Origin: a virus
Virus record (IMG/VR): IMGVR_UViG_3300009503_000019
Coordinates: 1 to 64,000 of that record
Length of the DNA: 64,000 nt
Reading direction: 5' to 3' (one strand)
The first letter of the stretch is position 1. Each line of letters opens with the position of its first letter. A model generated the notes under the pieces. It did not search any database, was not told the origin of the DNA, and saw only the letters and a list, made by a program, of their open reading frames with translations. A program made the position numbers and the translations under genes. Of this stretch, positions 29,028 through 46,506 are shown one piece after another.

Positions 29028-29647
29028 TCTTTTCCCTCTTTTTCAAGTGATTTAATTACTTCCAGAATTTTCATATTTAGTTTCTCCGCTAATTGTAATT
29101 TTATTATATGATTATATATAAAATTTTCTATCATGCCCTTTCTAAAATTATCTGTGAGACCGGAATTATTAGAATATGAAATATATGTATATTTAGTTTT
29201 GATACGGTATGCTTCCGGAGAAGATAATACTATTTCCATCGGATAAATACGAATCACATCATCATCACATCTAATAGAAGGAATTTTTTCTAGTATTAAA
29301 ATCATTTTATTATTTATATGATTATTTATAATGATTCTATTTGTCTTAATTTTTTTTTCTGAACTGACTGCTACTGAAAGTTCTATTTTTGGTTCTTCAG
29401 ATTCTCTATAAATATCTATATTTAAACTTAAATTTTCATGTTCTATATGATTATATCCGAATAATCGTTCCAATTTAGAATCTTCATAAGCAGAAATGAA
29501 TTTATCATAAAAAATCTTTTTCAATTTTTGTGCATTTTCCAAAATTGCTTTTAATTGATACATAAAATTGTTTTTTAATTCTTTAATCTCTTTAGGTTTC
29601 ATATAGATTGCTTGATTTATTTGTTTTTGTGCGTTCTCTATATTCAA
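29024..29647 (-). CDS. QxxINxxIF-family early protein
   Basis: N-terminal AQKQINQAIY. Confidence 0.65.
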   Translation of the reverse strand: MNIENAQKQINQAIYMKPKEIKELKNNFMYQLKAILENAQKLKKIFYDKFISAYEDSKLERLFGYNHIEHENLSLNIDIYRESEEPKIELSVAVSSEKKIKTNRIIINNHINNKMILILEKIPSIRCDDDVIRIYPMEIVLSSPEAYRIKTKYTYISYSNNSGLTDNFRKGMIENFIYNHIIKLQLAEKLNMKILEVIKSLEKEGKE

Positions 29648-29664
29648 TTTTTACCTCCATAAAA

Positions 29665-29787
29665 AAAAGATAGGTTTTGAATTTGTTAATTGGTTGTGTA
29701 ACGGAACCTGGAAGGTGGAGTGGAACAGGCAATTTTGAACAAGAGATAAATTTTGCCATCGATAACAATGGCATTGTCCTATCTTTT
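29665..29787 (-). ncRNA. Structured RNA unit 1 (retron msr/msd-like layout)
   Basis: Closing stem 29665-29674/29778-29787; conserved hairpin 29751-29773. Confidence 0.65.
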
Positions 29788-29798
29788 GTCCTTGTAAT

Positions 29799-29920
29799 GT
29801 CAGAAGATAGATTTAATTTGTTTGTTGTCCAAAATTTACGCTGTTTAAATTTTGGACACGATTTCTATTAGATTTTTATTTTGCTATCGATATCAATAGC
29901 AAATCCTTCTATCTTCCGAC
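29799..29920 (-). ncRNA. Structured RNA unit 2 (retron msr/msd-like layout)
   Basis: 13-bp closing stem with a G.U pair on the minus strand; conserved hairpin 29879-29901; additional 12-bp hairpin TGTCCAAAATTT/AAATTTTGGACA. Confidence 0.65.
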
Positions 29921-29924
29921 GAAT

Positions 29925-30227
29925 TCAAAATTCCCAGCTACAGTGATAAATTGCTAATTCGCTCAATTTATGAATTAAATCAAACTGATTTATTCTTGCT
30001 TTATTAGACCGTTGATAATTTTTTATTAATTCATATACTTGTGTTTCGTCTTCTAATTTGAATATAAAATCTATATCTTCAGGTGAAATTTCGGTCAATT
30101 TATTTCCATTTACTCTGTTCCAGGTCCACATTTGTAATCCGAATACATTTCCTTGATGTTCTTCAACAATATGTTTAATATCTTCCAATATGTGCTCATG
30201 GATCCATTCTATGTCTTCATCGTTCAT
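29925..30227 (-). CDS. Hypothetical protein upstream of the RNA pair
   Basis: Start moved to MNDEDI after GGAGG. Confidence 0.65.
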   Translation of the reverse strand: MNDEDIEWIHEHILEDIKHIVEEHQGNVFGLQMWTWNRVNGNKLTEISPEDIDFIFKLEDETQVYELIKNYQRSNKARINQFDLIHKLSELAIYHCSWEF

Positions 30228-30258
30228 TGCAAATCCTCCTTGTGAATAATTTGATTGA

Positions 30259-30270
30259 TTTATAACAAAA
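30259..30270 (-). promoter_or_regulatory. Promoter motif TTTTGTTATAAA
   Basis: Exact motif. Confidence 0.7.
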
Positions 30271-30273
30271 TTT

Positions 30274-30918
30274 TTGATAAATTTCATTATAATGTTTTTA
30301 ATTTATGAATTAAATATCTATCATTATTTGAATAGACAATTTGGGAATAAGTGGTTATTATGGCTTCCAGAAACGTTAAAAAAGGAGATTGAGACCACTC
30401 AATGTTTGGTTCTTGACGACTTAATATGGAATAAAATACGGGCTATTAGAGCAATACTTTATACAGATTCGTTTTTCGAATATTTTTATATTTTTGAAAA
30501 GATAGTAACTACATTTAACAATCGTATGCCTAATTTTTCAATTTTTACACCTATTTCTCCGCATGAACTTGTTTGGGGGATATTTATTTCTAAGAATATA
30601 AGAGATGATAAGTTCTCCGAGGAAGTAAAGAATTATATTGAAAAGGTTTTTGAATATAATGGTATACTTTTTCCGCATCCTATTGTTGATTTTAACAACA
30701 AATTCAATAAATATAAAGATATTGTTAGAACTATGAATGACAAGTTTGATTCAATCATTGACGAAGATGAAATTACAGACCCGATAGAGCATTCTGCATT
30801 TGAAATTGTCCGAATGGATAGAATCCTTCAAATTAAAAAGAAAGATATGTTTAGAGAAGCAGAGAATAATGGCATAATTTATCAGTTGAAGTTTGACTTT
30901 GATTTAAACTTGATTTAG
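30274..30918 (+). CDS. Hypothetical protein upstream of portal
   Basis: 214-aa ORF; start uncertain. Confidence 0.65.
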   Translation: MINFIIMFLIYELNIYHYLNRQFGNKWLLWLPETLKKEIETTQCLVLDDLIWNKIRAIRAILYTDSFFEYFYIFEKIVTTFNNRMPNFSIFTPISPHELVWGIFISKNIRDDKFSEEVKNYIEKVFEYNGILFPHPIVDFNNKFNKYKDIVRTMNDKFDSIIDEDEITDPIEHSAFEIVRMDRILQIKKKDMFREAENNGIIYQLKFDFDLNLI

Positions 30919-30921
30919 TAT
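30893..30921 (+). promoter_or_regulatory. Sigma70-type promoter, leaderless portal mRNA
   Basis: TTGACT-17-TAGTAT; ATG 7 nt after the -10. Confidence 0.6.
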
Positions 30922-30927
30922 ATAACT

Positions 30928-32781
30928 ATGCTGTTTTTTGATTTAAAATATGATATTGGAATCCCATCTGGTTTAGAACCATCTTTTGAAATTGAGAAGA
31001 CATTAAAGGTTTCTAATATCAAAGATATATTTAAACATATAAACTATTTTTCGAACAATGATGGATTTTTAGCATCTATAATCTTTAAACTTGCTCTCTA
31101 TCCAACAACAGATATTGTTGTTCAACCAGAGAATGACGCAACTGCAAAAATTATAAAGGATTTATTTTATGATGTTTTCGATATAAAGACTATTATTTTG
31201 AATGCATTAATTAGTTATTACATGTATGGGAATTTATTTGTTTCCATATTACCTGCTCGCAAAAGGCATTTTAAGTGCAAACAATGTAATCAAGATTTAG
31301 ATATAAATGATATTCCAATGATTAAATATGCGAAGAAGCAAAAATTTTATGGGATTTGCCCAAAGTGTAATACACGAGTTAATTTTGATGTTTATGATGA
31401 ATTAGACCGATCTGTAGAGAAAATGACTATAAAAATCTGGAATCCTATAGATATAGAATTAAATGATGATGGTTTTGGATATGTAGAAATTTATCACACA
31501 ATTTCTGCAACTCTGAAGAATAAGATTTCCAGAGCTGCAGAAGAAATAGTTTCATATGATCCATCTAAACCACCTCAATTGTCGCCAATGAGACATACAA
31601 AGACTATTTTAAAAAATATTCCATTAGAATTTCTTGATGCTGCAGTTAATGATGTATGGGTTAAATTTCATCCATCTAATATTTTCTTTAAAGCACGTCC
31701 CTCAGATTTAAACTGGATAGATCAGCCGTGGGGAATGCCATTACCTCGTCCTGCATTGAGTGATTTATGGTCATATAATTATCTAAAAAAATTATTGAAT
31801 TATGTTGCAAAAGAGAGAACATTTCTTCGTCGTATTGTATTCCCACAACCATCCGGTTCTGGGGATCCCGCAGAATTAATTAATCTTGCACGTTTCAAAT
31901 CAGAAATTCAGCAGGCGTGGCAGATGTGGAAGTATTATCCTGAAATTTTAAAATTCTTACCATTTCCAATAGGGATTCAGCATATTGGAGGAGAAGAATT
32001 ACAAATTCCTATTGTAGAATTGATGGATGCATTAGAAAAAAGGATTATTCGTGTTATGAATGTTCCTCTTGAATTTGCATACGGAGGTGCTGGCTTTACA
32101 TGGTCTGGAACGAGTGTAGGAATAAGAATGCTGGAAAATCTATTTACTAATGCTCGATTTGTTGCAATATCGTTATTAAAATTCATATTGCAAAAGATGC
32201 AAGATATTTATCAAATTGATACACAGAAACTAAATATCAGATTTACAGATATGAAAACTGCAGATGATTTAGCACGAACCAGATTACTATTTGAACTTGC
32301 ACAAGGAAATAGAATATCATGGTCAACACTTTTAAGAGAGGTTGGTTTAAATTATGAAGAAGAAATGAAAACATTAAAAAAAGATACCGAATTGTTTGCA
32401 GAATTTATGGCAGCATCTGCATTGGCTGAGGCACATGCCCAAAGAGAAGCACAAAAGACTTTAGCAACAACTCCTCTATATCAACAAATGATGCAACAAA
32501 TAGTAGCGGCTGGATTATCTATACCTTCTGACGAGGCAATTTCTCTTCCACCTCCAGTATTAGAGTTTTTGGGTCAAATAATGCAATTAGCACCGGCAGA
32601 ACAAGAATATATATTAAGAATGATGGAAAAAAAGATGCCTACTCTTGTTAAATATACGAGGAAAATTTTAGAAAAAATAAAACTGAGAGCCCCCTCCCCT
32701 CCACAAAGCGAGGAGGGCACAGAAGAATCTTTGCCTGAAGAAAAACCCCCACGGCGTGAGGGGGAAAAGAAACTTATTTAG
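30928..32781 (+). CDS. Probable portal protein with CxxC/CxxC insertion
   Basis: Size; PWGMPLPRPAL clip/stem-like region; helical C-terminus; genomic context. Confidence 0.65.
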   Translation: MLFFDLKYDIGIPSGLEPSFEIEKTLKVSNIKDIFKHINYFSNNDGFLASIIFKLALYPTTDIVVQPENDATAKIIKDLFYDVFDIKTIILNALISYYMYGNLFVSILPARKRHFKCKQCNQDLDINDIPMIKYAKKQKFYGICPKCNTRVNFDVYDELDRSVEKMTIKIWNPIDIELNDDGFGYVEIYHTISATLKNKISRAAEEIVSYDPSKPPQLSPMRHTKTILKNIPLEFLDAAVNDVWVKFHPSNIFFKARPSDLNWIDQPWGMPLPRPALSDLWSYNYLKKLLNYVAKERTFLRRIVFPQPSGSGDPAELINLARFKSEIQQAWQMWKYYPEILKFLPFPIGIQHIGGEELQIPIVELMDALEKRIIRVMNVPLEFAYGGAGFTWSGTSVGIRMLENLFTNARFVAISLLKFILQKMQDIYQIDTQKLNIRFTDMKTADDLARTRLLFELAQGNRISWSTLLREVGLNYEEEMKTLKKDTELFAEFMAASALAEAHAQREAQKTLATTPLYQQMMQQIVAAGLSIPSDEAISLPPPVLEFLGQIMQLAPAEQEYILRMMEKKMPTLVKYTRKILEKIKLRAPSPPQSEEGTEESLPEEKPPRREGEKKLI

Positions 32782-32960
32782 TTTTCTTTTTTTTCGTAAT
32801 AATAGTTGTCATATGTGTTTGATTGTTGGGAATTATTATCAACATTATAAAGTTGATTATTATAATCCCCGTATAATTTTTGGTTGATTTTGTCCTGGAT
32901 ATACTGTCCAACCATTTGTCCTATTAAATATCCTATTGCACCAAAAAGTTTGTCTAACAT
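32778..32960 (-). CDS. Small hypothetical protein
   Basis: Start moved to MLDKLFG after AAGGAGG. Confidence 0.55.
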   Translation of the reverse strand: MLDKLFGAIGYLIGQMVGQYIQDKINQKLYGDYNNQLYNVDNNSQQSNTYDNYYYEKKEN

Positions 32961-33068
32961 AATATTCACCTCCTTCCAATATATAGTCGGTTCAATTGAC
33001 TCATTCCAATAGATTCTTCTGTGCCTCCAAATTAACAATTGATTTATAACAGGAAATTTAATTTTTTT

Positions 33069-33097
33069 TTGATTTTAGATTTTTTTTCTTGTATAAT
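33069..33097 (+). promoter_or_regulatory. Sigma70-type promoter, leaderless
   Basis: TTGATT-17-TATAAT; in-frame ATG at 33105. Confidence 0.6.
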
Positions 33098-33104
33098 TGT
33101 ATTT

Positions 33105-33401
33105 ATGACGAGAATAAAATTTGATGTTTTCAATCTTTTATCTAAACGGGATGTCAACCGACTTAATAAAATTTTGAATGATCCTCATGTTTCTATATTG
33201 AAGTTTGAGATTAGAGATAATAATGCAATTGGATTGCGTCTTATAATGCAATGGAATGAATTTGATGAATCTATTCCAAAACAAATAGAAAAGATGATAA
33301 ATCTAGTTCCAGAAGAAGATTTGAGTAAGTATCCTGAAATTAAACATGAAACTAACGAAGAAAGGAAACGAAAGATGAAGGAGTCAACGGAACTTAAATG
33401 A
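33105..33401 (+). CDS. Hypothetical protein
   Basis: Start moved to MTRIKF. Confidence 0.6.
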   Translation: MTRIKFDVFNLLSKRDVNRLNKILNDPHVSILKFEIRDNNAIGLRLIMQWNEFDESIPKQIEKMINLVPEEDLSKYPEIKHETNEERKRKMKESTELK

Positions 33402-33928
33402 ATACAAATTCTCAAATAGAGCGGACAAAAGAATATGCAAGACAATTGGCAGAACAATTAAAACTAAGTCCAAAACCAATTGTAACATTTCATCCTGCGG
33501 GTGCTTTTGCATATCAACCATCTAAAGGCAAGCCAATCGTTTATTTATATCAATTCACACCAGAAGAACTGGCACATGAAATGGGACATATATATTTATT
33601 TCAGAGACATCCATTTTTATCATCTGTTGCTCAAAGTTTGTATGAGTTGCGGCCATTAACTACTTTTCTAGGGGGGATCACACCTATAGCTCTGATACGA
33701 GAAAGACCGTTGTGGGGGAAACCATTGTTAAAATCAATACCGTTGTCTATTTTAGGAATGTTGGCAGGTTATGGAATAGCAACTATTCCGAAATTGTTAG
33801 AAGAATCGGCTGCAACACAAGTTGGTATAAGAGGTTTGAAACAGTTAGGATATCAGCCTGCGCCTGGACTAACTCGAAGAGAAATGAAATTCTTGTATAG
33901 TTATGCGAAACCACATGTTTCAAGTTGA
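33398..33928 (+). CDS. Membrane-associated zinc metallopeptidase-like protein
   Basis: AHEMGH (HExxH), hydrophobic hairpin, downstream EESAA. Confidence 0.65.
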   Translation: MNTNSQIERTKEYARQLAEQLKLSPKPIVTFHPAGAFAYQPSKGKPIVYLYQFTPEELAHEMGHIYLFQRHPFLSSVAQSLYELRPLTTFLGGITPIALIRERPLWGKPLLKSIPLSILGMLAGYGIATIPKLLEESAATQVGIRGLKQLGYQPAPGLTRREMKFLYSYAKPHVSS

Positions 33929-33953
33929 CAAATAATGAAATTTGTGTTAATAT
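33925..33953 (+). promoter_or_regulatory. Sigma70-type promoter, near-leaderless
   Basis: TTGACA-17-TAATAT with TG; ATG at 33963, no SD. Confidence 0.65.
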
Positions 33954-33962
33954 AAATGCAAC

Positions 33963-34235
33963 ATGTGGAATGATATTTTTAAAATTGCTTATCTGAAGAC
34001 TTTAGTAAAAGAAGCCGGAGTTTTACCATTGACTAAACAGGAAGAATTATGGAAAGCTCTAAAAAAAATGAGACAAGCATTAGGGCATGCTACTTTTGAA
34101 CAGGTGTTACCATCAACAATTGGCAGAGAAACAGAATACTTTACTAAAGCAAGGGCATTAAAAACAATGCCATGGCAGAGATTTACAGAAGAACTTTATA
34201 GAGAGGTACCACAAGTTCGATATTTATATAAATAA
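33963..34235 (+). CDS. KxA-leader protein (probable virion internal)
   Basis: FKIA...VKEA near the N-terminus. Confidence 0.6.
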   Translation: MWNDIFKIAYLKTLVKEAGVLPLTKQEELWKALKKMRQALGHATFEQVLPSTIGRETEYFTKARALKTMPWQRFTEELYREVPQVRYLYK

Positions 34236-34255
34236 TGATTTTTGGAGGTAAAAAA

Positions 34256-34645
34256 ATGTGGCTAAAATATTTGATTGAAATGGAAAAACAGGCAGCAGAA
34301 TTTAGATTAACAACCCTATCACCAAGGGCACGAATGTTGATAAGAGACCTAATAGGAAAAATTGAAAAAGAACGAGCAGCTCAAGCACCAGTATTAAAAG
34401 AAACGTTACAAAAGATGTTACCTATTCCAGCATATGTGCCTCCGCCACAGCCCGGTTTTCTAAGAGGTTTACTTGAAGATACTTTAAATGTGCTCCGTGA
34501 ACCTCGTCGACAGCTTCCTCTTATTTTATCTCCGAAGACATGGAGAGGAGATATTGCTGTTGCAAGAAGGCAATTAGCAAGAAGGATGCGTGGTGCAGGA
34601 CAAGCAATGAGAAGGAGATTAGGGCAACTATTTCCTTTAAGATAA
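34256..34645 (+). CDS. KxA-leader Arg-rich protein
   Basis: Start moved to MWLKYL after GGAGG; EKQAA; Arg-rich C-terminus. Confidence 0.6.
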   Translation: MWLKYLIEMEKQAAEFRLTTLSPRARMLIRDLIGKIEKERAAQAPVLKETLQKMLPIPAYVPPPQPGFLRGLLEDTLNVLREPRRQLPLILSPKTWRGDIAVARRQLARRMRGAGQAMRRRLGQLFPLR

Positions 34646-34663
34646 AAAATTAGCGAGGTTAAG

Positions 34664-34972
34664 ATGTGGAAAGAAATTTTTGATGAAGCATATGTAAAGT
34701 TAGCAAAGAAGCTAACTTATCGAGAGCGTCAGCAACTCCCAGACAGTGCATTTGCTATACCTGAAGAACGTAGATATCCTATTATGGATCGAGCGCATGC
34801 GAAAAATGCTCTTGCACGAGTAGCTCAGTTTGGAACTCCTGAAGAGAGACAGAGAGTGCGTGAAGCGGTTTACAGAAGATATCCTGATTTGAAAGAGCAG
34901 CGTGAAGAAAAAATTGGTCGTCCAATGTCTCGTAGAGAGTTAAAAGAAAAAAAGAAACTCCCAAAAAAATAA
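34664..34972 (+). CDS. KxA-leader basic protein, DUF6582-like
   Basis: YVKLA; R..LPDSAFAIPEERRYPI.D..HA.NALARVAQ motif (recalled family, not searched). Confidence 0.6.
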   Translation: MWKEIFDEAYVKLAKKLTYRERQQLPDSAFAIPEERRYPIMDRAHAKNALARVAQFGTPEERQRVREAVYRRYPDLKEQREEKIGRPMSRRELKEKKKLPKK

Positions 34973-34984
34973 AAAATTAATTAT

Positions 34985-35779
34985 TTAATCCATTGCATAA
35001 GTATTTTCAGGCATTGATGCAATAATTTCTTCTAAATCTGGTAATTTTTTGGTTTTTTTCATAGTTTCCAGATGTTTTCTTATTTCAATAGCCCTACAAT
35101 ATCTTTTTACTTCTTCTGGGCAATAAGCACATAATGGACCGAATTCTGCAATTGAATTCGATATATCTTTTGAACCTTCATGAATTGCTTTAATTCTGTC
35201 AATTATAAAGTTTTTAATTTCTGTAGAGTTTTCAATGTCAACTTGAAATCTTTTTACTCCACGCATTGAAATATATATTAATTCTAATCGCTTAATATTG
35301 TCACTATGAGTTTTTTCATACATATATTTGTATAAATTTACTTGTTTTTTATGTGCTTCATATGGATGATATGGAAATTCCGATGTTGTTTTGTAATCTC
35401 TTAAAATTTTATTTTTGATATCAATTTCATCAATTCTTCCTACAATTTTTTCATTGTGTAATAAAAGCTGTACATCATATTCAGTTAATAAATTTTTATT
35501 ACTATGAAATTCTACTGCTAAATGTAATCCAGTTCCTCTAAATTTAAAAAATAGATTTTCAGGTTTTTCTAAGTAATCAATTTGTCTTTTCAATACTTTT
35601 TGTCTTGGACATACTGTCAAATCAGTAACATGAATATCTTCATCCATTCTTTCTTTTATCATACTCCTTAATATACTTGCCGTATAATCACATGGATTAT
35701 CTCCACTTTCTGCACATGTTAAACATTCTTTAACAGTAAATACATTTTTTCTTTTATTACACATTATTCCTTTTATCAT
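34985..35779 (-). CDS. Cas4-like PD-(D/E)XK exonuclease
   Basis: VTDLTVCPR, GTGLH, GRIDEID...DYKT, QVNLY, C-terminal CAYCP..C. Confidence 0.85.
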   Translation of the reverse strand: MIKGIMCNKRKNVFTVKECLTCAESGDNPCDYTASILRSMIKERMDEDIHVTDLTVCPRQKVLKRQIDYLEKPENLFFKFRGTGLHLAVEFHSNKNLLTEYDVQLLLHNEKIVGRIDEIDIKNKILRDYKTTSEFPYHPYEAHKKQVNLYKYMYEKTHSDNIKRLELIYISMRGVKRFQVDIENSTEIKNFIIDRIKAIHEGSKDISNSIAEFGPLCAYCPEEVKRYCRAIEIRKHLETMKKTKKLPDLEEIIASMPENTYAMD

Positions 35780-36545
35780 TATATCCTCCTTGTACTAATC
35801 TGATCATATTATAAAATTCATCACAATCATAGAATTTATATTTATCCCCAAAAAATATTCCAAGATATTTAATAGTTTTTTTAGTGAGTATCTTAATTAT
35901 GAAAGATGTTGCTAATGATGCTCCAATGATATTCCATATTGGAAGTATACCATTTCCACAATGTACTTTTGACACGTTATTCTTTGATAACATTATATGC
36001 CATGGGACTATGTCAGTAATTTTGAATCCATCAAATATTTGTTTACCTGATTTATGTCTTATATTATAATATTGTGAGGAATGACTTATTGGAAATAATA
36101 GAGTTTGCCCTCCATTTTCATGAACGCCAGTATCGATGATTGCGATAATTTTTGAAATTAAAAAACGTGAACAATGATGGAATATTTTCAGTCGGGTTTC
36201 GAAGTTATCAACACACAAAACAATAATTGCATACATATTTAAAAAATTATTAATTGCATATTCTATTTTGTTTATTATATAGTACAAATTTGAGTATATT
36301 TTTGAATATCTTTGTGCTATGACCTCAGCTTTATATTTTTTTAAATCACTTTTTATAAAGTTCTGATTTAATAAATTTTTTTCTTCTACTCTATCAAAAT
36401 CTATAACAACAATATCTATATTTTTTAAATTTAATGCAGTTAGATTTCTTGCTAGAAAATTAGTGAGATAACTTCCAGTCGCTCCTGCGCCAACTATAAG
36501 TATGTTTATAGGGGCATCATAATCTTGTAAGTTAGCATATAGCAT
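35757..36545 (-). CDS. ThiF-family E1-like enzyme (PRTRC type)
   Basis: IVGAGATGS, DFDRVEEKNL.NQNF, CVDN..TR, VHC. Confidence 0.85.
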   Translation of the reverse strand: MLYANLQDYDAPINILIVGAGATGSYLTNFLARNLTALNLKNIDIVVIDFDRVEEKNLLNQNFIKSDLKKYKAEVIAQRYSKIYSNLYYIINKIEYAINNFLNMYAIIVLCVDNFETRLKIFHHCSRFLISKIIAIIDTGVHENGGQTLLFPISHSSQYYNIRHKSGKQIFDGFKITDIVPWHIMLSKNNVSKVHCGNGILPIWNIIGASLATSFIIKILTKKTIKYLGIFFGDKYKFYDCDEFYNMIRLVQGGYNDKRNNV

Positions 36546-36546
36546 T

Positions 36547-37056
36547 TTATTCCTCCAGTGCGAGAAATTTTAAAAATACTTCTATGTTAATTTTTTTATA
36601 TAGAAAATTTGGTTTTTGAGAGAACGGCATTAATATAAATTTTTGAACTGCATCTTGTGCTGAATGCGGTATATAGTTGTTATAGCATATAGCTTTAAAT
36701 TCAGGTATTTCTTGAAATCCATCAATTTGATTTGGCATTTGTGGGAATATGCCTATAGATTCATTAGGAGTATTTCTATCTATTATACCAAAAAGGAATG
36801 TCTTTTTATTTTTTAAAACAATAAATAATTTTAAATTAGATGGTATTTCAATTTTTTCTATTATCTTATTATCGTTATTACCATTAATATAATACAGGTA
36901 TTTACTATCAACAAATTTGATGTCCAGAGATTTAATGAATTTATTTTTAAATAATATACTTAGCGGAACAATTTTAGTTCCTTTTATAGTATGGATATAT
37001 GCTACTTTATTTGTGTCGGGGTATATATCCATTTTCTTTGATTTATTCATTATCAT
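36547..37056 (-). CDS. Probable prokaryotic E2 family D protein
   Basis: PQMPN...AICY...F...PFS resembles PRTRC protein B; adjacent to ThiF. Confidence 0.5.
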   Translation of the reverse strand: MIMNKSKKMDIYPDTNKVAYIHTIKGTKIVPLSILFKNKFIKSLDIKFVDSKYLYYINGNNDNKIIEKIEIPSNLKLFIVLKNKKTFLFGIIDRNTPNESIGIFPQMPNQIDGFQEIPEFKAICYNNYIPHSAQDAVQKFILMPFSQKPNFLYKKINIEVFLKFLALEE

Positions 37057-37291
37057 CCTCCCATTTGATTGTTATGCCTGTTCCGTTTAATACGAATTTG
37101 ATAAAGGAGTTAATATTTTTATCCCAAAGATATTTTTCATTAGTCAATGTATTTTTTATTTTTTCTGGATATATGAGGATTAAATGTGGGAATAGAAAGA
37201 TATTATATTTTTCAAATGCGGTGCGTAATCGTTCATAGAATTTTGATTTTTCCAAAATTTTATATAAATTCTTCGTCGGTTTCATAATCAC
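37043..37291 (-). CDS. Hypothetical protein in RT-Ubl operon
   Basis: Overlaps both neighbours. Confidence 0.55.
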   Translation of the reverse strand: MIMKPTKNLYKILEKSKFYERLRTAFEKYNIFLFPHLILIYPEKIKNTLTNEKYLWDKNINSFIKFVLNGTGITIKWEDDNE

Positions 37292-37649
37292 CCTCCAAAG
37301 ACTTTAATTGATTTGCAATTTCTTTTAAAACGTCTATATTTTTATGTATTTCAATAAAAAAATTTATTGCTTTATAAAGATCTTCTTTCAATTTAGGATC
37401 CAATGATAAATCCGGATCGAATTCTAATTTGAAATTATATCCCTTTTCACCAACAATTAATCCGACTTTATAAATAGAATCATCAATTTTTTCTATATTA
37501 TTTTCGTCAATTTTTATGTTAAGTCCGTCTAATTCATGAATAATTTCTTTTTTAATTTCTTCTTCTGACAGGGTATCATTCAATTCCAATACAATTTCAA
37601 AATCTGTGCTTGTTGGGTAGTTAGGACCTACTATTTTAATTTCTTTCAT
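37260..37649 (-). CDS. Probable ubiquitin-like protein with C-terminal extension (PRTRC-C-like)
   Basis: About 70-aa domain ending VGEKG (G70), then a 59-aa tail. Confidence 0.5.
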   Translation of the reverse strand: MKEIKIVGPNYPTSTDFEIVLELNDTLSEEEIKKEIIHELDGLNIKIDENNIEKIDDSIYKVGLIVGEKGYNFKLEFDPDLSLDPKLKEDLYKAINFFIEIHKNIDVLKEIANQLKSLEGDYETDEEFI

Positions 37650-37667
37650 TTTAGTACCTCCTTATTT

Positions 37668-38477
37668 TTATTTGTTCATTATTTCTATAATATTTTTCCA
37701 TGAACGGTATCCCATCAATTTTTTGTGAAGATTTTCATCATAATTTTTTTCTAAATGATGCTGTAATCCACGTATGGTATGAGAATGCTTCTGTCGAATT
37801 TTTGCTACGATTTTTCCATCATAATCATCTCTATATATAGTGAATCCAAGCATTTTTACAAATGGTTTGTTTTCAGATTTATATGGAATTTTTCTACATT
37901 TGAATTTTGATATTTTGAAACCGTAGTTTAGTATTGAAGCTACTAAGTATTTATTCATTTTTTTATCTGAGTGAAACATATAAAAATTATCTATATAATT
38001 TATAATTGCTACTGCTTTATATTTAAAAATATAATCAAACATTCTGAATAATTTAAATAAAGCAAATGAAGACAATCTAGGCGAAGTTGGTGCGCCTTGA
38101 GGCAATATTAATTTTCCTTTATATTCAACAAAACATTTTTCTACAATATTTATAAATTTTGAATTGCTCCATTTGTAGAAAATATTTAATAGATAATCTG
38201 GAGTCACATTCGTAAAAAAATTTTTGATATCACACGCTGTTAAGAATATTTCATCGGGATTAGGATCGTAAAATTGTGCGTTAATGAATTTAAATATGTA
38301 GCTTGGAGAACATTTATGTTGACCCAATATTATAGTGTTTTTTAATTTTGGATATTTAATTATTGCTAATTCATGATGTAGAATTTCTTTTTGTTGTTTT
38401 TTTAAATCATCATCTGGAATATGGAGGATTCTAAATCCTCCTTTCCTTTTTGGGATTTTAATAATTTTATACGGCAT
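37668..38477 (-). CDS. Retron-like reverse transcriptase with non-canonical YIDN motif
   Basis: KRKGGFRILHIP, LKKQQ, NAQFY, DIKNFF, LPQGAPTSP.LS, YIDN, MLGF. Confidence 0.85.
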   Translation of the reverse strand: MPYKIIKIPKRKGGFRILHIPDDDLKKQQKEILHHELAIIKYPKLKNTIILGQHKCSPSYIFKFINAQFYDPNPDEIFLTACDIKNFFTNVTPDYLLNIFYKWSNSKFINIVEKCFVEYKGKLILPQGAPTSPRLSSFALFKLFRMFDYIFKYKAVAIINYIDNFYMFHSDKKMNKYLVASILNYGFKISKFKCRKIPYKSENKPFVKMLGFTIYRDDYDGKIVAKIRQKHSHTIRGLQHHLEKNYDENLHKKLMGYRSWKNIIEIMNK

Positions 38478-38504
38478 GTTTCCTCCGAAATCTGGATTTA
38501 TTAT

Positions 38505-38533
38505 TTGAATTTATAACAAAAAATTGATAAATT
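38505..38533 (+). promoter_or_regulatory. Sigma70-type promoter, near-leaderless RNAP mRNA
   Basis: TTGAAT-17-TAAATT with TG; ATG at 38543; no SD. Overlaps the divergent RT promoter. Confidence 0.6.
38510..38521 (-). promoter_or_regulatory. Promoter motif TTTTGTTATAAA (RT-Ubl operon)
   Basis: Exact motif. Confidence 0.7.
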
Positions 38534-38542
38534 TAATGTCAA

Positions 38543-41500
38543 ATGCTGAAAGGGTATATTGAAGCTATTCAGAATCTCTTTCCCATTGATTCCCCAAATT
38601 ATACAATTAATGTATCTAATATAACGCCTAAGATCAAAGAAGATGTTTTTATTCCTGAGAATATAAAAAAAATGAAATTGGAAGGAAAGATTTTGACTAC
38701 TCCTATATATGCAGATGTTACAATTACTGACAAAAATGGTAAAGTTATTAGTTCCAGGAAACAGATGAAGATTGCAGAAATACCTGCACTTATTCCTGCA
38801 ACAAATTCTTATCTTGGAGGTAAAGGTAAAGAAATTACTATATTGGGTCAATTTAGATTCAAGCCAGGAATTTATACTATAATTCCATCTTCTGGTAATG
38901 TTAAAACAACTTTTCATTTAAAAGGTACGAGTTTTCATCTGACAAGCGATGCAGGAAAATTATATTTCACTGTAGATTCAAAACATTTCGCTATCTATCC
39001 AATATTAAAATTTTTTGGTATTACTGATAATGATATTATTAATAATTTTGGAAATAAATTTTTAGAGGATAATAAAATAGATATTTCTCCTGCAGAAATG
39101 GAAAGATTGATAAAGAGATTTTACAAAAATATTTCAAGAGATCAACGTTCCGAAGATGAGATTAGTATCAATGATATTATAACATATTTTTCAGGTAATA
39201 TTTTTGATCCGAATGTAAACAAAGTCACATTAGGTCAGGATTTTTCTCAATTAAATAAAGAAACATTATTAGCAGCTATTAAGAAATTTTTAAATGTTTC
39301 TACTGGAGTTGAACCACCAGATTCAAAAGATTTATTAATATTTAAAAGATTTCATAATGTAAATGATTTTATTAAAGAACGTATAGAAGGTCTTAAATGG
39401 CAATTAAAAAAGAAAATTCAGCGAAATCTTGAATTACATCCAGAGGAGATTCGCCGGGTTTTACCTACTGGATTATTGTCTAAACCATCGTTTGAATTAT
39501 TGAATTCTTCAGTAGCGTCTATGGAAAAATATACTAATCCCGCATCAATATTATCGGCAATGACGAAAATGACTTATCTTGGGGAAGGAGGATTACAGAC
39601 TGAATATGCCGCTACACCAGAAATGCGAAATTTCAATTTTTCTATGCTTTCAACCTTAGATCCTATACAAATGCCAGAGTCTGAGAAAATTGGGTTAGTT
39701 TTTCATGCTGCTTTGGGTGCTAATGTAGATAATCAAGGTAATATAACTAAAATTGTTTTCAATCATAAAACTGGAAAATATGAAACAATAAGTGGAACTG
39801 ATTTCTGGATAAAAAATATTGCTTTTCCTGATCAATATGAAAACGGTAAATTCAAGAATCCAAATTCAGTTAAAGTTATGAATGAAGGTAAAATAAAATA
39901 TGTAAAATCTAAAGATGTAGATTATATTCTTCCTATGAGTACTTCTTTTTCAATGCTTAGTTCGTTAATTCCAATGATTTCATCATTCCATCCTACAAGA
40001 GCTTTAATTGCTTCTAAAATGATTGGGCAAGCTTTGGCATTAAAGAATAAAGAAGCGCCTTTAGTTCAAAGTGAGATCCCTTCAGAATTATTAGAAATCA
40101 GGAAACAATTACATCCTGAATTGACTGGTGCCTTATCTGATCATTTAGAACATTCTAATTCCTTTGAAGAATTATTAGGTGCAAAATATTCTGTTGTTTC
40201 CCCAGTTAATGGAACGGTTACGTTAGTATCCAAAGATGAAATTGTCATTACTGATAAAAAAGGAGAAAAATACAGATTTCCTCTATATAATAATTTTCCC
40301 GTATATCCAGATTCTTTTATTCATCAGGAGCCTATAGTAAAAGTTGGTGATAAAGTTTCAAAAGGGATGCCATTAGCTAAAAGTAATTTTACTGATGGTA
40401 AAACATTAGCATTAGGTACTAATTTATTAACGGCTTATATACCTTTTAAAGGGTATAATTATGAAGATGCTATAGTTATATCAGAGAGTGCATCAAAAAA
40501 ATTGACTTCAGAAAGAATTATACATGAATATTTTGAAATTCGAGAGGGTATGATTCTTGATAAAAATAAATTTAGAGCAATTTTTCCAACATTATTATTA
40601 GAAGAAAATGCACGCAAATTAGATGATGATGGTGTAGTCAAAAAAGGAGCAATTGTTAAAAAAGGAGAAATTTTAATTGCGGCATTAATGCCTCGTATTA
40701 TAACTCCAGATGAATATCAACTTATGCGTATACACAGGAAATTAGTGCCTAAGTATCGTGATGCTTCATTAGTATGGAATAGGGAGAACGACGGAGAAGT
40801 TATAGAAGTGCGCAAAACAAGACATTCAATAAGTTTATTAATAAAAACATCAGATCCTGCTGAGATTGGTGATAAATTGGTAGGACGATTTGGTGAAAAA
40901 GGGCTCATTGCTTATATAGTTCCAGATAGTGAAATGCCAAGAACTAAAGATGGAAAGGTAATTGATGTCATTTTTAATCCATTAAGTGTTATTTCAAGAA
41001 TTAATACTGGACAATTAGTAGAACTTGCATTAGGTAAAGTTGCTCAGAAACAAGGAAAACCAATTTATGTTCCTTTATTCACAAAACAAAATTATGTAGA
41101 ATATGCAAAAAAATTATTGAAAGATCATGGATTATCCGACACCGAAACATTAATTGATCCAAAAACTGGAAAAGAAATACCTAATGTGATGGTTGGTCCA
41201 AAATATATATTTAAATTGGAACATGAGATTAAAGATAAATTAGATGCTCGTTACAAAGGTTCTTACGATATGGATTTAGCACCTGCTAGACAAGGAGAAG
41301 AAGGGGCAAAAGCATTAGATACTTATACTGCATATGGATTATTTGCACATGGAGCACTAGCAAATTTAAAAGAAATGGCAACATATAAAGCAGAGAAGAA
41401 TGATGCATTCTGGGATGCAATTGAAAATGGTTTTATGTTGCCAGCACCTAAACCTACATTTGCAATGGATAAATTTTTAGCAATGTTAAAATCTGCAGGG

Positions 41501-44500
41501 ATAAATGTTGAAAAACAAGGTACAACTTTTAGATTATTACCCCTAACTGATAAAGATGTCACTGAAATTGCAAAAATAAAAATAGAAAATCCGAGGACGG
41601 TATCTGGTGCAGAATTAAAACCCGAAAAAGGAGGTTTATTTGACCCGGCATTAGGAGGATTAACAGGAACACGCTGGGGATATATTCAATTAGCTGAACC
41701 GATGCCAAATCCTATCGTAGAAAAAGCATTATTACAAATATTACAATTAAGTTCTGCTCAATTTGAAGATTTGATTGCTGGTAAAACTGTTAATGGTATT
41801 CAAGGAATAGAAGGATTAAAACAATACTTAAAAAATTTAGATATTGATAAATTAATTACTCAGTATCAAGAAATGGCAAAGAATGCTCGTTTAGATGAAT
41901 TGGATAAATATAATAGAATAATAAGATTTTTAAAAGGACTAAAAGAAGCTAAAATAAAACCAGAATCATTAATAATAACAAAAATACCAGTAATTCCACC
42001 AAAAATGAGACCTATTTATGTGAAAGATGATCAGGTTATTTATTCTCCATTTAATGACTTGTATAAGCATTTATTGATGGCAAATGAATTATTAGAAAGA
42101 ACAAAAGAACTTCCTGAAGAACATCGTGCTTCTATACGATTAAAAGCTTATGAAGCCTTAAAAGCTATTGCAGGATTAACTGACCCCATTTCACCTGCAT
42201 TTTCAAAACGGCCTGTTCAAGGAATTTTATCAATGATTGCAGGTCCAACTCCTAAATTAGGATATTTTCAGTCTAAACTTGCACGTAAAGAGCAAGATTT
42301 AGTAGGAAGAACTGCAATTATTCCAGAACCAGATTTACATCCTGATGAAGTTGGATTGCCGTATGAGATTGCATGGAAGATATTTGAACCATTTGTTATT
42401 CGTAAACTTATTCAGCAAGGATATACAAAAATTCAAGCTGTTAAGAATGTAGAAGATAGAACTCCTATAGCAAAAGCTGCATTAGAAGCAGTTGCAAAAG
42501 AAAGATTAGTTTTATTAAATAGAGCACCAAGTTTGCATAAATATAATATACTTGCATTCAAACCCAGACTCATTGAAGGAAATGCAATGAAAATACCTCC
42601 ATTAGTTGTTGTTGGCTTTAATGCTGATTTTGATGGCGATGAGCAGCTAGGGTCGATATTGATTTCAGTTAAAAAAGATTTTAAATTACAGAAATGGTAT
42701 TTAGATTTGATAAAAACTGGGGCCAGAATAATGTTCGATAAAAATGCGAAAATACCCATTAAATCAGATCGTGAATATTTTATTATTAATCTTGCGGATT
42801 TTCCGAGACTTCATTTAGTAGCTTCTAAAAATCATATAGATTTTTATGCAGTTCCAGACGATATTGAAGTACTGGCATACGACGAGAAAATTCATACGAT
42901 TTCATGGCAAAAAGCGACTTCATGGTCGTTACATCATAAAAGAAAAATTTGTTTTATCAATTTGAAATCAGGCAAACAAATTGTGTCTGATGATGATCCA
43001 AGGGCAGTTTATGGGATAGATCCAGTTACATTAGAATACGGACGGTGGAGACCTGCAGAAAGTATTGGTAAATTAGTGCCGGTTGTAAAAAATTTGAAAT
43101 TGCAAGAATATGTAAAGCAAATAAGCACCAAAGGTTGTCCTTACTGGAAATTGAAGAATTGTCTAAAAGAAACAATAGAATTGAATGAGGAATTTGGTTA
43201 CTTACTTGGTTATATTATAGGCGACGGCTGGATATCTTATACAAAAGACGAAGAAAAAAATGTAAGCATTGCTATTGATCCAAAAAATTCAGAGCTCAAA
43301 AAACATTTGATTTCAATAACGAAAAAACTTTTCAATAAAAAATATAATCTCATTAGTGAACAAAAAGTATCAAAATCAAAGTGGCAATCTTCCAAAATAA
43401 CAATCAATTCCAAACAACTTGCATGGTTAATTTCTCCATGGATTGGTAAAAATGCAGAAAATAAACATTTACCTCCATTTACATTAATTTCTCCGGAAGA
43501 ATTCAGACGAGGATTATTAGCTGGTTTAATTGATTCAGATGGTAGCATCTCAATCTCTCATGCTAAGTCCAAACCACAATTACTTATAAATTTATCAACT
43601 GCAAGCATACGACTGGCACAGGAAATACAATTGCTAGCAAAAAGTTTAGGAATCCCTGCTTCTATAACTGCATATAATGGTGGAATGAAAAATAGCAAAA
43701 ATTATATGATTAATTTTTCTAATTATCATTTCCAGAAAGCTAATTTGAATATTAAACATCCTGAAAAAAGAAGAAAATTGTTATCAATTTCGATTGAATC
43801 TTCTCCTGGTTTGATGTCTCATGATTTAGTTCCATTTAATTCAACACTGGCGGAAATTATTATGAAACGAATAAATCGCAATAAAGAATGGAGTTTGTAT
43901 GTAATAGTGCAGAGGTATAAAAATTTGAATTATATAACTCGTTCTTCAGCATTAAAAATTCTAAAAATTGTTGATAATGATGATCCATTATTTTTGAGAT
44001 GGAAGCAGATTGTATTGAATGATTCAATAACATGGGATCCCGTAGTTTCTTATGAACAAACTGATATTGAAGAAGATGGTTATGATATCACCGTTCCAGG
44101 ATACGAAACATTTATGAACATTGAAGGAGTGATTTTATCAAACACAATGACTATTCATACTCCTGTAACTCAGGAAGCATTAGAAGAAGCACGTAGACTT
44201 TTGCCTTCAAATAACTGGGTACATGAAGCAAAAGGGACTATATTATTGATGCCACGTCATGAGGCAATTATTGGAATCTACAGATTGACTTCTGAAGGAC
44301 GCCAATTGAATATTACTTTCAACAATGAAAAGGAAGTGGAGGATGCTTATAAAGCAAATAAGATAAATTTCAATGATATTGTCAATGTCAAGGGAATAGG
44401 CAGGACGTCGTTTGGAAGAATAATTGTTAATAAAGTTTTACCTCCTGAATTGAGAGATTATAAATCTCAAATTGATGGTTCCAAATTACATGACATATTG

Positions 44501-46039: not shown

Positions 46040-46506
46040 TTGTATGTAAAAATTATACTATAGTTTCTGGTGTTGGTAGAGATGAAGATGAACTTGTTGC
46101 ATTTGATAAAGCATTAAAAAGTGCAGGATTGCATAGATTTAATTTAGTGCCTGTTTCAAGTGTGTTTCCTACTTTAGCTGAATATCATCCGCCAAGAGAT
46201 TTGAAGGAACTTGATCGTGGGGCAATCATTCATGTTGTTTTGAGTAAAATAAATGTGAAAAAAGAATTTGTAGATATATCGGCAGGAATTTGTTTAGCAA
46301 TTTCCAAAATAAGTGGTGGAGGGATCATAAGTGAATATTCGGGAGAAGTAAATAAGGAAAAATGTAAATCTATTCTAAGGGAAAGAGCCAATAAAATTGC
46401 AGAAACTCACGATCTTTTTGATATGACTATGGAATTTGAAATAATGAGTGCAAAATCTAATCCTGTAACTTATACTTGTTGTATAGCGGCAGTAGTTTTA
46501 TGGTGA
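46036..46506 (+). CDS. pdaD: Pyruvoyl-dependent arginine decarboxylase
   Basis: AFDKAL..AG...FNLVPVSSVFP self-cleavage motif; GTGA overlap with the RNAP stop. Confidence 0.88.
   Translation: MIVCKNYTIVSGVGRDEDELVAFDKALKSAGLHRFNLVPVSSVFPTLAEYHPPRDLKELDRGAIIHVVLSKINVKKEFVDISAGICLAISKISGGGIISEYSGEVNKEKCKSILRERANKIAETHDLFDMTMEFEIMSAKSNPVTYTCCIAAVVLW

What the first reader, a model, noticed from the sequence alone, without database searches (positions are those of the whole stretch)
37668..38477. Retron-like RT with YIDN active site heading a ubiquitin-like operon
Seen: retron-type motifs (KxxGGxR, NAxx[F]Y for NAxxH, LPQGAPTSP) but catalytic YxDD reads YIDN (tat ata gat aat). There is no adjacent ncRNA (leader about 25 nt) and no DGR TR/VR or intron domain. 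It is co-transcribed with Ubl, E2, E1 and Cas4-like genes, and is divergent from the RNAP gene with overlapping promoters. Established: the second Asp is normally needed for catalysis. Inference: either an altered nucleotidyltransferase or a dead RT used as an RNA-binding or anti-retron factor.
Basis: partly seen in the sequence, partly recalled or inferred. Interest (0 to 1): 0.7.

Follow-up and report, generated by a model that had tools for sequence, protein, structure and literature searches.

The report
Phage reverse transcriptase with YIDN site
An uncultured hot-spring phage carries a retron-like reverse transcriptase whose catalytic YxDD motif has been stably kept as YIDN, at the head of an operon with ubiquitin-type activating machinery; this RT-plus-E1/JAB pairing recurs in other phages and I found no paper describing it.

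Summary
Window 37668-38477 (-) encodes a 269-aa reverse transcriptase (Pfam RVT_1, E 9e-13). Its nearest solved and profiled relatives are retron RTs, and motif C reads YIDN.

YIDN is neither an error nor decay:
- All six orthologous lineages (53-68% identity) keep it, using both Asn codons.
- dN/dS is 0.18.
- Every other active-site residue is invariant.

Loss of the second Asp recurs. 22 of 171 nearest relatives have YxDN, in at least five clades.

The RT-E1 link is conserved far beyond this phage. Seven other loci with RTs only 22-36% identical carry a ThiF-type E1 nearby. Four of them also carry a Prok-JAB protein and three an E2_D-like one. Five of the eight linked RTs lack the second Asp.

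In this phage the set is dispersed:
- The operon holds RT, a beta-grasp-like protein, an 82-aa protein, a 169-aa Cys protein (E2 call unproven), E1 and a Cas4-like nuclease.
- A cassette-type JAB lies about 64 kb away.
- Two tandem, covarying, retron-shaped RNAs lie 7.7 kb away on the RT strand.

Most likely this is an attenuated but working polymerase tied to a ubiquitin-like conjugation module. A non-catalytic role is the main rival. This scan has already noted the same RT-Ubl cassette in at least 23 other genomes.

The parts
37668..38477 (-). Retron-clade reverse transcriptase, 269 aa (P0001), with motif C YIDN
   Evidence: RVT_1 E 9.1e-13. Retron RT models score best. Orthologs are 53-68% identical and omega is 0.18.
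37986..37997 (-). Codons TAT ATA GAT AAT = Y161 I162 D163 N164 (motif C)
   Evidence: Orthologs use AAT or AAC for Asn and GAT or GAC for Asp, so Asn is held by selection.
38510..38520 (-). Promoter-like motif TTTGTTATAAA upstream of the RT operon, inside the 65-nt divergent gap to the RNAP gene
   Evidence: Exact match, one of 10 exact copies in the window. The same motif lies at 30259-30269 (-) upstream of the RNA pair, and about 15 nt upstream of RNA unit 1 in L001. Function as a promoter is inferred.
37260..37649 (-). 129-aa protein (P0172): N-terminal beta-grasp-like domain (1-64), linker with conserved GEKG, helical hairpin, acidic tail ending DEEFI. Candidate Ubl.
   Evidence: AF2 gives a bb-a-bb fold with pLDDT 83-92 over residues 1-60. 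Foldseek top hits are ubiquitin and GB1 at E 0.07-0.3. The Atlas lists Ufm1, DWNN, Crinkler and PRTRC-C rows. Omega is 0.12. No Pfam hit.
37043..37291 (-). 82-aa protein (P0173), unknown function
   Evidence: Conserved in 4 lineages (A4). Omega is 0.16. No family hit.
36547..37056 (-). 169-aa protein (P0174) with conserved FPxMPNQID...KAIC. The E2-like reading is unproven.
   Evidence: Only one orthologous cluster was found. The AF2 model is poor (pLDDT 53.5). No fold or family match. The Cys is conserved with a 190-aa protein at the same position in L041 (A6), without statistical support.
35757..36545 (-). ThiF-type E1-like adenylating enzyme, 262 aa (P0175)
   Evidence: ThiF 1.1e-21, PRTRC ThiF 8.4e-20 and CBASS Cap2 E1-E2 models 1.2e-9. 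Invariant residues across six cassette E1s: GxGxxG, DxD, N57, Q61, K72, D113, R118 and Cys196.
34985..35779 (-). Cas4-like PD-(D/E)XK nuclease, 264 aa (P0176), last gene of the operon
   Evidence: PDDEXK_1 9.7e-9, Cas4 models 2.7e-11 and phrog_1706 9e-18. It is 86% identical to the L001 ortholog with omega 0.04, much more conserved than its operon partners. Also present in L041 (7e-40).
29799..29920 (-). Structured RNA unit 1: 13-bp closing stem with AAGAUAG core, conserved 7-bp hairpin, long variable hairpin. Candidate template RNA; its link to the RT is inferred.
   Evidence: Fold z -7.78 for the pair. A syntenic copy in L001 has compensatory changes. 98.8% of cells pair, 6 pairs change on both sides, and slid controls pair about 45%. 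No Rfam family.
29661..29787 (-). Structured RNA unit 2, same architecture, ending in a U run
   Evidence: Model R1 finds only these units in the 121-kb record and the fetched loci.

Best explanation
The gene encodes a functional retron-clade reverse transcriptase. The third, auxiliary carboxylate of its active site (the second Asp of YxDD) has been replaced by Asn and kept that way by selection. I read it as a working but attenuated or metal-shifted polymerase that makes short products, not as a dead enzyme.

It belongs to a recurrent phage module that couples such an RT to ubiquitin-like conjugation machinery: an E1, usually a JAB peptidase, often an E2_D-like protein, and a small beta-grasp protein. 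In this phage the module is dispersed. RT, beta-grasp protein, p82, p169 and E1 (plus a Cas4-like nuclease) form one operon. The JAB sits about 64 kb away. The likeliest template is a tandem pair of retron-shaped RNAs 7.7 kb away on the same strand, behind the same promoter-like motif.

Shown: gene identities, conservation, the linkage, and RNA structure with covariation.
Inferred: polymerase activity of the YIDN form, use of the remote RNAs as template, and any covalent conjugation step.
For: 1. Asn is selected.
- YIDN is present in all six lineages (window, L001, L023, L022, L004, L017).
- They carry synonymous AAT/AAC and GAT/GAC changes.
- RT omega is 0.18.

2. The rest of the active site is intact.
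- Motif A Asp, the first motif C Asp, the FF gate, the QG/SP of motif B, R16 and G13 are kept in 22/22 YxDN sequences.
- That matches the 144 YxDD sequences.

3. YxDN recurs in at least five clades among the 171 nearest relatives.

4. YCDN and YVDN relatives have strongly structured RNA directly upstream: L038 z -7.9 and L005 z -8.05. This is what a templated RT would need.

5. RT-E1 linkage is seen in seven further loci.
- L041: YADD, same synteny with the fused RNAP and Cas4-like gene, plus JAB.
- L038: YCDN, E2_D, JAB, E1.
- L046: YADN, JAB, E1.
- L015: YADD, E2_D, JAB, E1.
- L040 and L009: YADG.
- L014: YADD.
- Sources.

6. A JAB with HSHPGELHNTRFSGTD lies at G000 102275-102940 (-). It is specifically similar to the cassette JABs of L041 (8e-14) and L015 (1e-10).

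7. xDN motif C polymerases work in nature. Negative-strand RNA viruses use GDN, and birnavirus uses ADN with lowered activity (PMC9752661).

8. The remote RNA pair has a retron-like layout, covariation, the same strand and the same promoter-like motif.
Against: - In studied RTs, replacing the second Asp of YxDD abolishes or nearly abolishes activity. This rests on my own knowledge of HIV-1 RT and retron mutants, not on a check made here.
- Two cassette-linked relatives have YADG (L040, L009). Gly offers no metal ligand at all, which fits a role that does not need catalysis.
- The retron hallmarks (the His of NAxxH, VTG) are degenerate.
- No RNA lies next to the RT.
- The RT-RNA link rests on two phage lineages only. 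The RNA model finds nothing near any other RT.
- E2 identity and Ubl conjugation are unproven. The beta-grasp protein ends in DEEFI, not Gly.
- No expression or msDNA data exist.
Confidence: 0.5

Rival explanations
1. Non-catalytic RT. The protein keeps the RT fold to bind a structured RNA or a partner protein, acting as sensor, scaffold, decoy or anti-retron factor, while polymerisation has been lost with the second Asp.
For: The second Asp is lost repeatedly in cassette-linked RTs: 5 of 8 seen here, including two YADG with no side chain at that position. The family is very divergent from true retron RTs (61-67 bits). Retron motifs are degenerate. There is no adjacent template RNA.
Against: Every other catalytic, dNTP-binding and steric-gate residue is invariant in all 22 YxDN sequences. 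A protein freed from catalysis would be expected to drift there. The syntenic relative L041 and also L015 and L014 keep YADD in the same cassette, so the ancestral role used the full site. xDN polymerases are active in RNA viruses.
Confidence: 0.3
2. The RT and the E1 set are independent neighbours. The RT acts alone or with the remote RNAs, and the E1, beta-grasp and Cys proteins serve an unrelated phage function. The operon is only compact packing.
For: Operon partners between RT and E1 differ completely in sequence between lineages. The Cas4-like gene evolves at a very different rate (86% against 56-68% identity) and is probably a core recombination gene. In this phage the JAB and the RNA are elsewhere, so the parts can be separated.
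Against: An E1 lies within a few kb of the RT in seven further loci whose RTs are only 22-36% identical, in varied gene orders. JAB is present in four of them and E2_D-like proteins in three. Linkage that persists through rearrangement argues for a functional tie.
Confidence: 0.12
3. Decay or sequencing error: a dying RT gene, or a miscalled base turning GAT into AAT.
For: A single G-to-A change would produce it.
Against: Six lineages from different samples carry YIDN with both Asn codons. The frame is intact, omega is 0.18 and 100 of the 269 columns are invariant.
Confidence: 0.01
4. A DGR or group II intron RT.
For: Both classes occur in phages. TIGR04416 (group II RT/maturase) gives a weak partial hit at 3.6e-10, 39.5 bits against a cut-off of 300.
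Against: No template/variable repeat pair occurs in 24-50 kb. No intron RNA was found by Rfam in the 33000-40500 stretch scanned. The protein is only 269 aa, with no maturase or endonuclease part. Retron models score best.
Confidence: 0.02

Closest known systems
Retrons (RT + msr-msd ncRNA + effector; 13 types, Mestre et al. 2020, PMC7736814)
   Same: The RT is closest to retron RTs by every profile used. It is compact (269 aa), and motifs 1-7 are recognisable, including LPQGAPTSP. Distant YxDN relatives have structured RNA just upstream. The candidate RNAs have terminal inverted repeats, a conserved hairpin and a long variable hairpin.
   Different: It scores far below all retron family cut-offs (67 against 235 bits). 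The His of NAxxH is absent and VTG reads LGF/Y. Motif C is YIDN. No ncRNA lies next to the RT. The partners are E1, JAB and beta-grasp proteins, which appear in none of the 13 types: neither 'ThiF' nor 'ubiquitin' occurs in that paper. It is carried by a lytic-type tailed phage rather than a bacterial defence island.
Bacterial E1/E2/JAB ubiquitin-like cassettes: Bil (BilABCD), type II CBASS Cap2/Cap3, PRTRC
   Same: There is a ThiF-type E1 with all adenylation residues and an invariant Cys. The best E1 models are PRTRC ThiF and Cap2 E1-E2. A JAMM-motif JAB is present. Relatives carry Prok-E2_D-like proteins. A small beta-grasp-like protein is present. The cassette is attached to a nucleotidyltransferase, as in type II CBASS (analogy from my own knowledge).
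   Different: The beta-grasp protein ends in DEEFI, whereas BilA homologs end in an obligatory Gly (10.1101/2023.09.04.556158). No E2 is verified in this phage. The E1 is minimal (262 aa) and not fused to an E2. The JAB is 64 kb away. The attached enzyme is an RT, not a CD-NTase. The carrier is a phage, not a host defence locus.
Right-hand polymerases with natural xDN motif C (GDN of negative-strand RNA virus L proteins; ADN of birnavirus VP1)
   Same: They replace the last Asp of motif C by Asn and retain activity. In birnavirus the ADN form lowers activity (PMC9752661).
   Different: Those are RNA-dependent RNA polymerases. I found no described reverse transcriptase class with YxDN (one search returned only unrelated gene names).
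Phage RT-Ubl cassettes already noted by this scan in at least 23 other genomes
   Same: They show the same pairing of a retron-type RT with an E1, JAB, E2-like and small beta-grasp kit in large uncultured phages. I re-derived the pairing independently here.
   Different: Those notes describe compact cassettes with adjacent template RNAs. Here the cassette is dispersed (remote JAB, remote RNAs) and the RT has YIDN. The notes are unchecked AI readings, not publications.

Membership tests
Retron | RT belongs to the retron/retron-like RT clade | tested here: inconclusive
   Retron models are the best hits (PADLOC RT_II-A 1.6e-17, St85 1.4e-18, PDB retron RTs 1e-11). However, 67 bits falls far short of the 235-bit cut-off, and no retron type is clearly preferred.
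Retron | NAxxH motif in region X (His most conserved) | tested here: not met
   The window reads NAQFY. Orthologs read NDI-V, NNTPL, NEL-L and NHY-V. Only the Asn is invariant. The definition comes from PMC7736814.
Retron | VTG triplet in region Y (Gly most conserved) | tested here: inconclusive
   It reads LGF or LGY. The Gly (G211) is invariant but V and T are not kept.
Retron | YxDD catalytic motif | tested here: not met
   YIDN is found in all six lineages.
Retron | msr-msd ncRNA adjacent to the RT gene | tested here: not met
   The 65-nt upstream gap is unstructured (z -0.05). No gap exists inside the operon and there is no Rfam hit. A retron-shaped RNA pair exists 7.7 kb away, but its link to the RT is only inferred.
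Retron | Production of msDNA primed from a branching G | not testable with these tools
   Only assembled contigs of DNA runs were available.
Ubiquitin-like conjugation cassette (Bil / Cap2-Cap3 / PRTRC type) | E1 with ATP-binding and adenylation residues | tested here: met
   ThiF 1.1e-21. Invariant GxGxxG, DxD, N, Q, K, D, R and a Cys across six cassette E1s.
Ubiquitin-like conjugation cassette (Bil / Cap2-Cap3 / PRTRC type) | E2 (UBC fold) with catalytic Cys | tested here: inconclusive
   p169 has an HPN...C-like string and a conserved Cys. It has no Pfam, PDB or fold match, the model is poor, and hhalign to the E2_D-like proteins of relatives gives nothing.
Ubiquitin-like conjugation cassette (Bil / Cap2-Cap3 / PRTRC type) | Ubl: beta-grasp fold with C-terminal Gly | tested here: inconclusive
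   The beta-grasp-like fold is modelled with pLDDT 83-92 and weak ubiquitin matches (E 0.07). The protein ends in DEEFI. A conserved GEKG lies after the domain, so exposure of a Gly would need cleavage, which is untested.
Ubiquitin-like conjugation cassette (Bil / Cap2-Cap3 / PRTRC type) | JAB/JAMM peptidase | tested here: met
   It is not in the operon. The genome encodes a 221-aa protein at G000 102275-102940 (-) with HxH...SxxD. Prok-JAB scores 19.7-20.5 bits, below the 25-bit cut-off. It is similar to the cassette JABs of L041 (8e-14) and L015 (1e-10).
Diversity-generating retroelement | Template/variable repeat pair near the RT | tested here: not met
   No direct repeat of 40 nt or more other than AT-rich promoter-like stretches occurs in 24000-50000.
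Group II intron | Intron RNA domains around the RT, and maturase/X domain | tested here: not met
   No Rfam intron hit in the 33000-40500 stretch scanned, which brackets the RT gene. The protein is 269 aa and ends soon after RT7.

The most novel reading that the evidence does not exclude
The phage RT-E1-JAB(-E2)-beta-grasp set is a new kind of functional system. In it a retron-like RT, working with only two catalytic carboxylates, makes a short cDNA from dedicated phage RNAs. The ubiquitin-like machinery then covalently couples a protein (the beta-grasp protein or the RT itself, by analogy with Cap2 priming of CD-NTases) to a target or to the nucleic-acid product. The parts can work in trans from dispersed loci.
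Probability: 0.3. Interest if true: 0.85.

Novelty: new variant of a known kind. Interest (0 to 1): 0.62.

Why it matters
Three points stand out.

- **Active-site rule.** The second Asp of YxDD is textbook-essential for RTs. Here a whole set of natural RTs under purifying selection has replaced it (YxDN, and even YxDG) while keeping everything else. This gives a direct natural test of how many carboxylates an RT needs.
- **Undescribed pairing.** The RT is tied, across very divergent phages, to E1/JAB/E2-type ubiquitin-like machinery. I could not find this pairing in the literature searched. Its purpose is open: phage counter-defence, self-modification, or a cDNA-protein conjugate.
- **Trans action.** This phage shows the module can be split across the genome. 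That helps define which parts must act in cis and which in trans.

Tried and rejected
- **Complex prediction** of E1 (A9) with the 129-aa protein (A3): no answer, score 0.00. This is not evidence either way.
- **AF2 of the 169-aa protein:** pLDDT 53.5. VIA-align wide search gave Z of 3.6 or less with nothing coherent. The Atlas model was also poor.
- **hhalign of the p169 group (A6) against the E2_D-like group (A7):** no match.
- **hhalign of p129 (A3) against the 70-aa protein after the L041 E1:** no match, despite a motif-level resemblance.
- **Pfam at E up to 10** for p129, p82 and p169 gave nothing meaningful.
- **Nucleotide search of INPHARED phages:** no match. The protein search found only two Staphylococcus Kay-type phage records at 28% identity.
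- **The search for related loci:** E1 or p169 alone found nothing in IMG/VR. The 19-sequence RT alignment was too diverse to scan. The metagenome scan gave one 1.6-kb contig.
- **IMG/VR pattern scan for the conserved RNA hairpin:** 14 single hits, about the number I estimated by hand for chance, and none in tandem.
- **Model R1** found no further RNA copies in the 121-kb record or in other loci.
- **The L041 gap between E1 and the nuclease** holds small ORFs and a terminator, not an RNA array.
- **Sequencing runs:** no RNA holder is listed. Only contigs from hot-spring DNA runs were available, so there is no depth or end information.
- **Literature search for the YxDN strings** returned E. coli gene names only. 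No paper holds RT, ThiF, JAB and retron together. The jumbo-phage survey PMC7824862 does not mention the pairing.

Full report
**1. What is at the coordinates**

The ORF 37668..38477 on the minus strand encodes 269 residues (P0001). Pfam RVT_1 matches end to end at E 9.1e-13, above its cut-off.

All profile libraries place it nearest to retron RTs:
- PADLOC RT_II-A 1.6e-17 and RT_III-A 2.6e-16.
- NCBIfam retron St85 1.4e-18, but 67 bits against a cut-off of 235.
- A profile of the family against PDB sequences hits retron Ec78, Ec83 and St85-type RTs at 1e-11 to 1e-9, ahead of group II intron RTs.

Motif C reads Y161-I-D-N164. The codons TAT ATA GAT AAT lie at 37997-37986.

Two details need trimming. 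First, the 'NAxxH' equivalent keeps only its Asn. The His that Mestre et al. call the most conserved residue of that motif (PMC7736814) is absent in all orthologs. Second, VTG reads LGF or LGY, with only the Gly kept.

**2. Is YIDN real and selected?**

An indexed search of 5.8 billion proteins found four orthologous clusters at 53-67% identity. An exhaustive HMMER pass over 1.84 billion representatives found only one representative above 1e-30, so the family is tiny. A sixth lineage came from the metagenome scan.

All carry YIDN. The Asn codon is AAT in four lineages and AAC in two, and the Asp codon varies between GAT and GAC. Window against L001 gives dN/dS 0.18 for the RT. The 129-aa, 82-aa, E1 and nuclease genes give 0.04-0.20; for the 169-aa gene dS was saturated and no ratio could be computed.

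**3. How unusual is the Asn?**

Among the 171 nearest relatives collected, motif C ends in DD in 144 and in DN in 22. Of the other five, two end in DG and two in DE. The fifth (P0050) is a misaligned 1123-aa protein that was left out of later counts. A FastTree phylogeny puts the DN forms in at least five separate clades. The window's family sits in a weakly supported neighbourhood of 20 sequences, of which 13 are DN and 2 are DG.

In all 22 DN sequences the other functional positions are as invariant as in the DD group:
- the motif A Asp;
- the first motif C Asp;
- the second Phe of the motif A FF pair (the first varies, A/F/Y, outside this family);
- Gln-Gly and Ser-Pro of motif B (Gln is Glu in one sequence);
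- Arg16 and Gly13.

That pattern is what an enzyme looks like, not a relic. Natural xDN motif C polymerases exist: GDN in negative-strand RNA viruses, and ADN in birnavirus, where it lowers activity (PMC9752661). It is established polymerase knowledge, not tested here, that only two carboxylates are universal in right-hand polymerases.

**4. The surroundings**

The record is a 121-kb IMG/VR virus contig, with completeness estimated at 66%. It is a tailed phage with a large terminase at 52587-54155 and an HK97-type head protein at 62368-63339. It occurs in hot-spring metagenome runs.

The RT is divergent from a 2498-aa fused beta-beta' RNAP that carries a LAGLIDADG intein.

Downstream on the RT strand, with gaps or overlaps of -32 to +18 nt and no terminator-like site, lie:
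- a 129-aa protein;
- an 82-aa protein;
- a 169-aa protein;
- a ThiF-type E1 (1.1e-21; PRTRC ThiF and Cap2 models are the best matches);
- a Cas4-like nuclease.

The order is kept in L001, L002, L003 and L018-L023.

The 129-aa protein models as a bb-a-bb beta-grasp over residues 1-64 (pLDDT 83-92), followed by a linker, a helical hairpin and an acidic tail. Foldseek's top hits are ubiquitin and GB1, but only at E 0.07-0.3. The Atlas lists Ufm1, DWNN and PRTRC-C rows. The protein ends in DEEFI, and a conserved GEKG follows the domain.

The 169-aa protein has an HPN...Cys-like string, but no test supported an E2 fold.

**5. The linkage is general**

I looked up the contigs of distant RT relatives.

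| Locus | RT motif C (identity to window RT) | Neighbours |
|---|---|---|
| L041 | YADD (36%) | Same synteny: divergent fused RNAP, RT, two small genes, Prok-JAB-like, ThiF, then a Cas4-like gene (7e-40 to the window's) |
| L038 | YCDN | RT, Prok-E2_D-like, Prok-JAB-like, ThiF |
| L046 | YADN | RT, Prok-JAB, ThiF |
| L015 (188-kb viral contig) | YADD | E2_D, JAB, ThiF, one gene, RT |
| L040 | YADG | E2_D-like proteins next to the RT and a partial E1-like gene (weak match to the L038 E1) at the contig edge |
| L009 | YADG | E1 nearby |
| L014 | YADD | E1 nearby |

So an E1 accompanies RTs that share only 22-36% identity, in several gene orders. Five of the eight linked RTs lack the second Asp.

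The six cassette E1s share all adenylation residues and one invariant Cys.

The window's operon has no JAB. However, the same genome encodes one at 102275-102940 (-) with HSHPGELHNTRFSGTD. It is specifically similar to the JABs of L041 (8e-14) and L015 (1e-10), and it lies beside an AAA ATPase.

**6. A candidate RNA**

The gap folds with z -7.78. It holds two units, each with:
- a closing stem around an AAGAUAG core;
- a conserved 7-bp hairpin that keeps a U.G pair;
- a long variable hairpin.

The syntenic copy in L001 has compensatory changes in the closing stem, and a different sequence but the same shape in the variable hairpin. On the four units, 98.8% of cells pair and six pairs change on both sides. 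Slid controls pair about 45%.

The RNAs lie on the RT strand. The same TTTGTTATAAA motif precedes the RT operon (38510) and the RNA transcript (30259), and in L001 it lies just upstream of unit 1.

The RNAs match no Rfam family, and the model finds no other copy. The layout is retron-like, but the tie to the RT rests on two lineages and is an inference. Supporting the idea that such RTs are templated, the YCDN and YVDN relatives L038 and L005 have strongly structured RNA directly upstream (z about -8).

**7. Reading**

Most likely (0.5) this is a working, attenuated RT within a phage RT plus ubiquitin-like module that is dispersed in this genome. The main rival (0.3) is a non-catalytic, RNA-binding or scaffold RT, favoured by the YADG relatives. 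Independent neighbours (0.12), decay or error (0.01), and DGR or intron (0.02) are less likely or excluded.

I found no paper on the pairing. This scan has noted the same cassette in at least 23 other genomes. Those notes are unchecked and were not used as evidence.

Noticed in passing
window 38543-46039 (+): A single 2498-aa ORF fuses RNAP beta (Rpb2 domains) and beta' (Rpb1 domains) and carries a LAGLIDADG/intein insertion. The ortholog in L004 is 1995 aa with no intein hits, and L041 has the same fused gene.
   Followed up: partly
window 29661-29920 (-): Two tandem structured RNAs with covariation, conserved at the syntenic place in L001 (18611-18901). No Rfam family matches. They are treated here as candidate RT templates.
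   Followed up: yes
G000:C1:102275-102940 (-) = L043 18275-18940 (-): A 221-aa JAMM-motif JAB protein related to the JABs of RT-E1 cassettes in other phages. It lies directly upstream of a 566-aa AAA ATPase (L043 16584-18284).
   Followed up: partly
window 46036-46506 (+): The gene after the RNAP matches pyruvoyl-dependent arginine decarboxylase (PvlArgDC) in the orthologous loci L001 and L004.
   Followed up: no
window, 10 exact sites (e.g. 8822+, 10274-, 12416-, 20792-, 24049-, 24740-, 30259-, 38510-, 57197-): TTTGTTATAAA recurs upstream of genes. With one mismatch allowed there are 24 matches, against 12.7 expected. It is likely a phage promoter element.
   Followed up: partly
L001 13531-14514 (-): The sister phage has a 327-aa Intein_splicing/HNH_3 gene next to the Cas4-like gene. 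The gene lists show no ORF of that size at the matching place in the window (the convergent genes after the nuclease are 102 and 136 aa), but I did not search the window for it.
   Followed up: no
L005 1052-1555 (-) and 1805-2833 (+): A YVDN RT relative (P0006, 342 aa) sits divergent from an RNaseH_like (PF04308) gene, with a 249-nt strongly structured gap between them (z -8.05).
   Followed up: partly
window 29600-38600: The stretch is held by runs labelled hot springs metagenome. Two 2025 runs carry a variant about 91% identical over the RT region.
   Followed up: no
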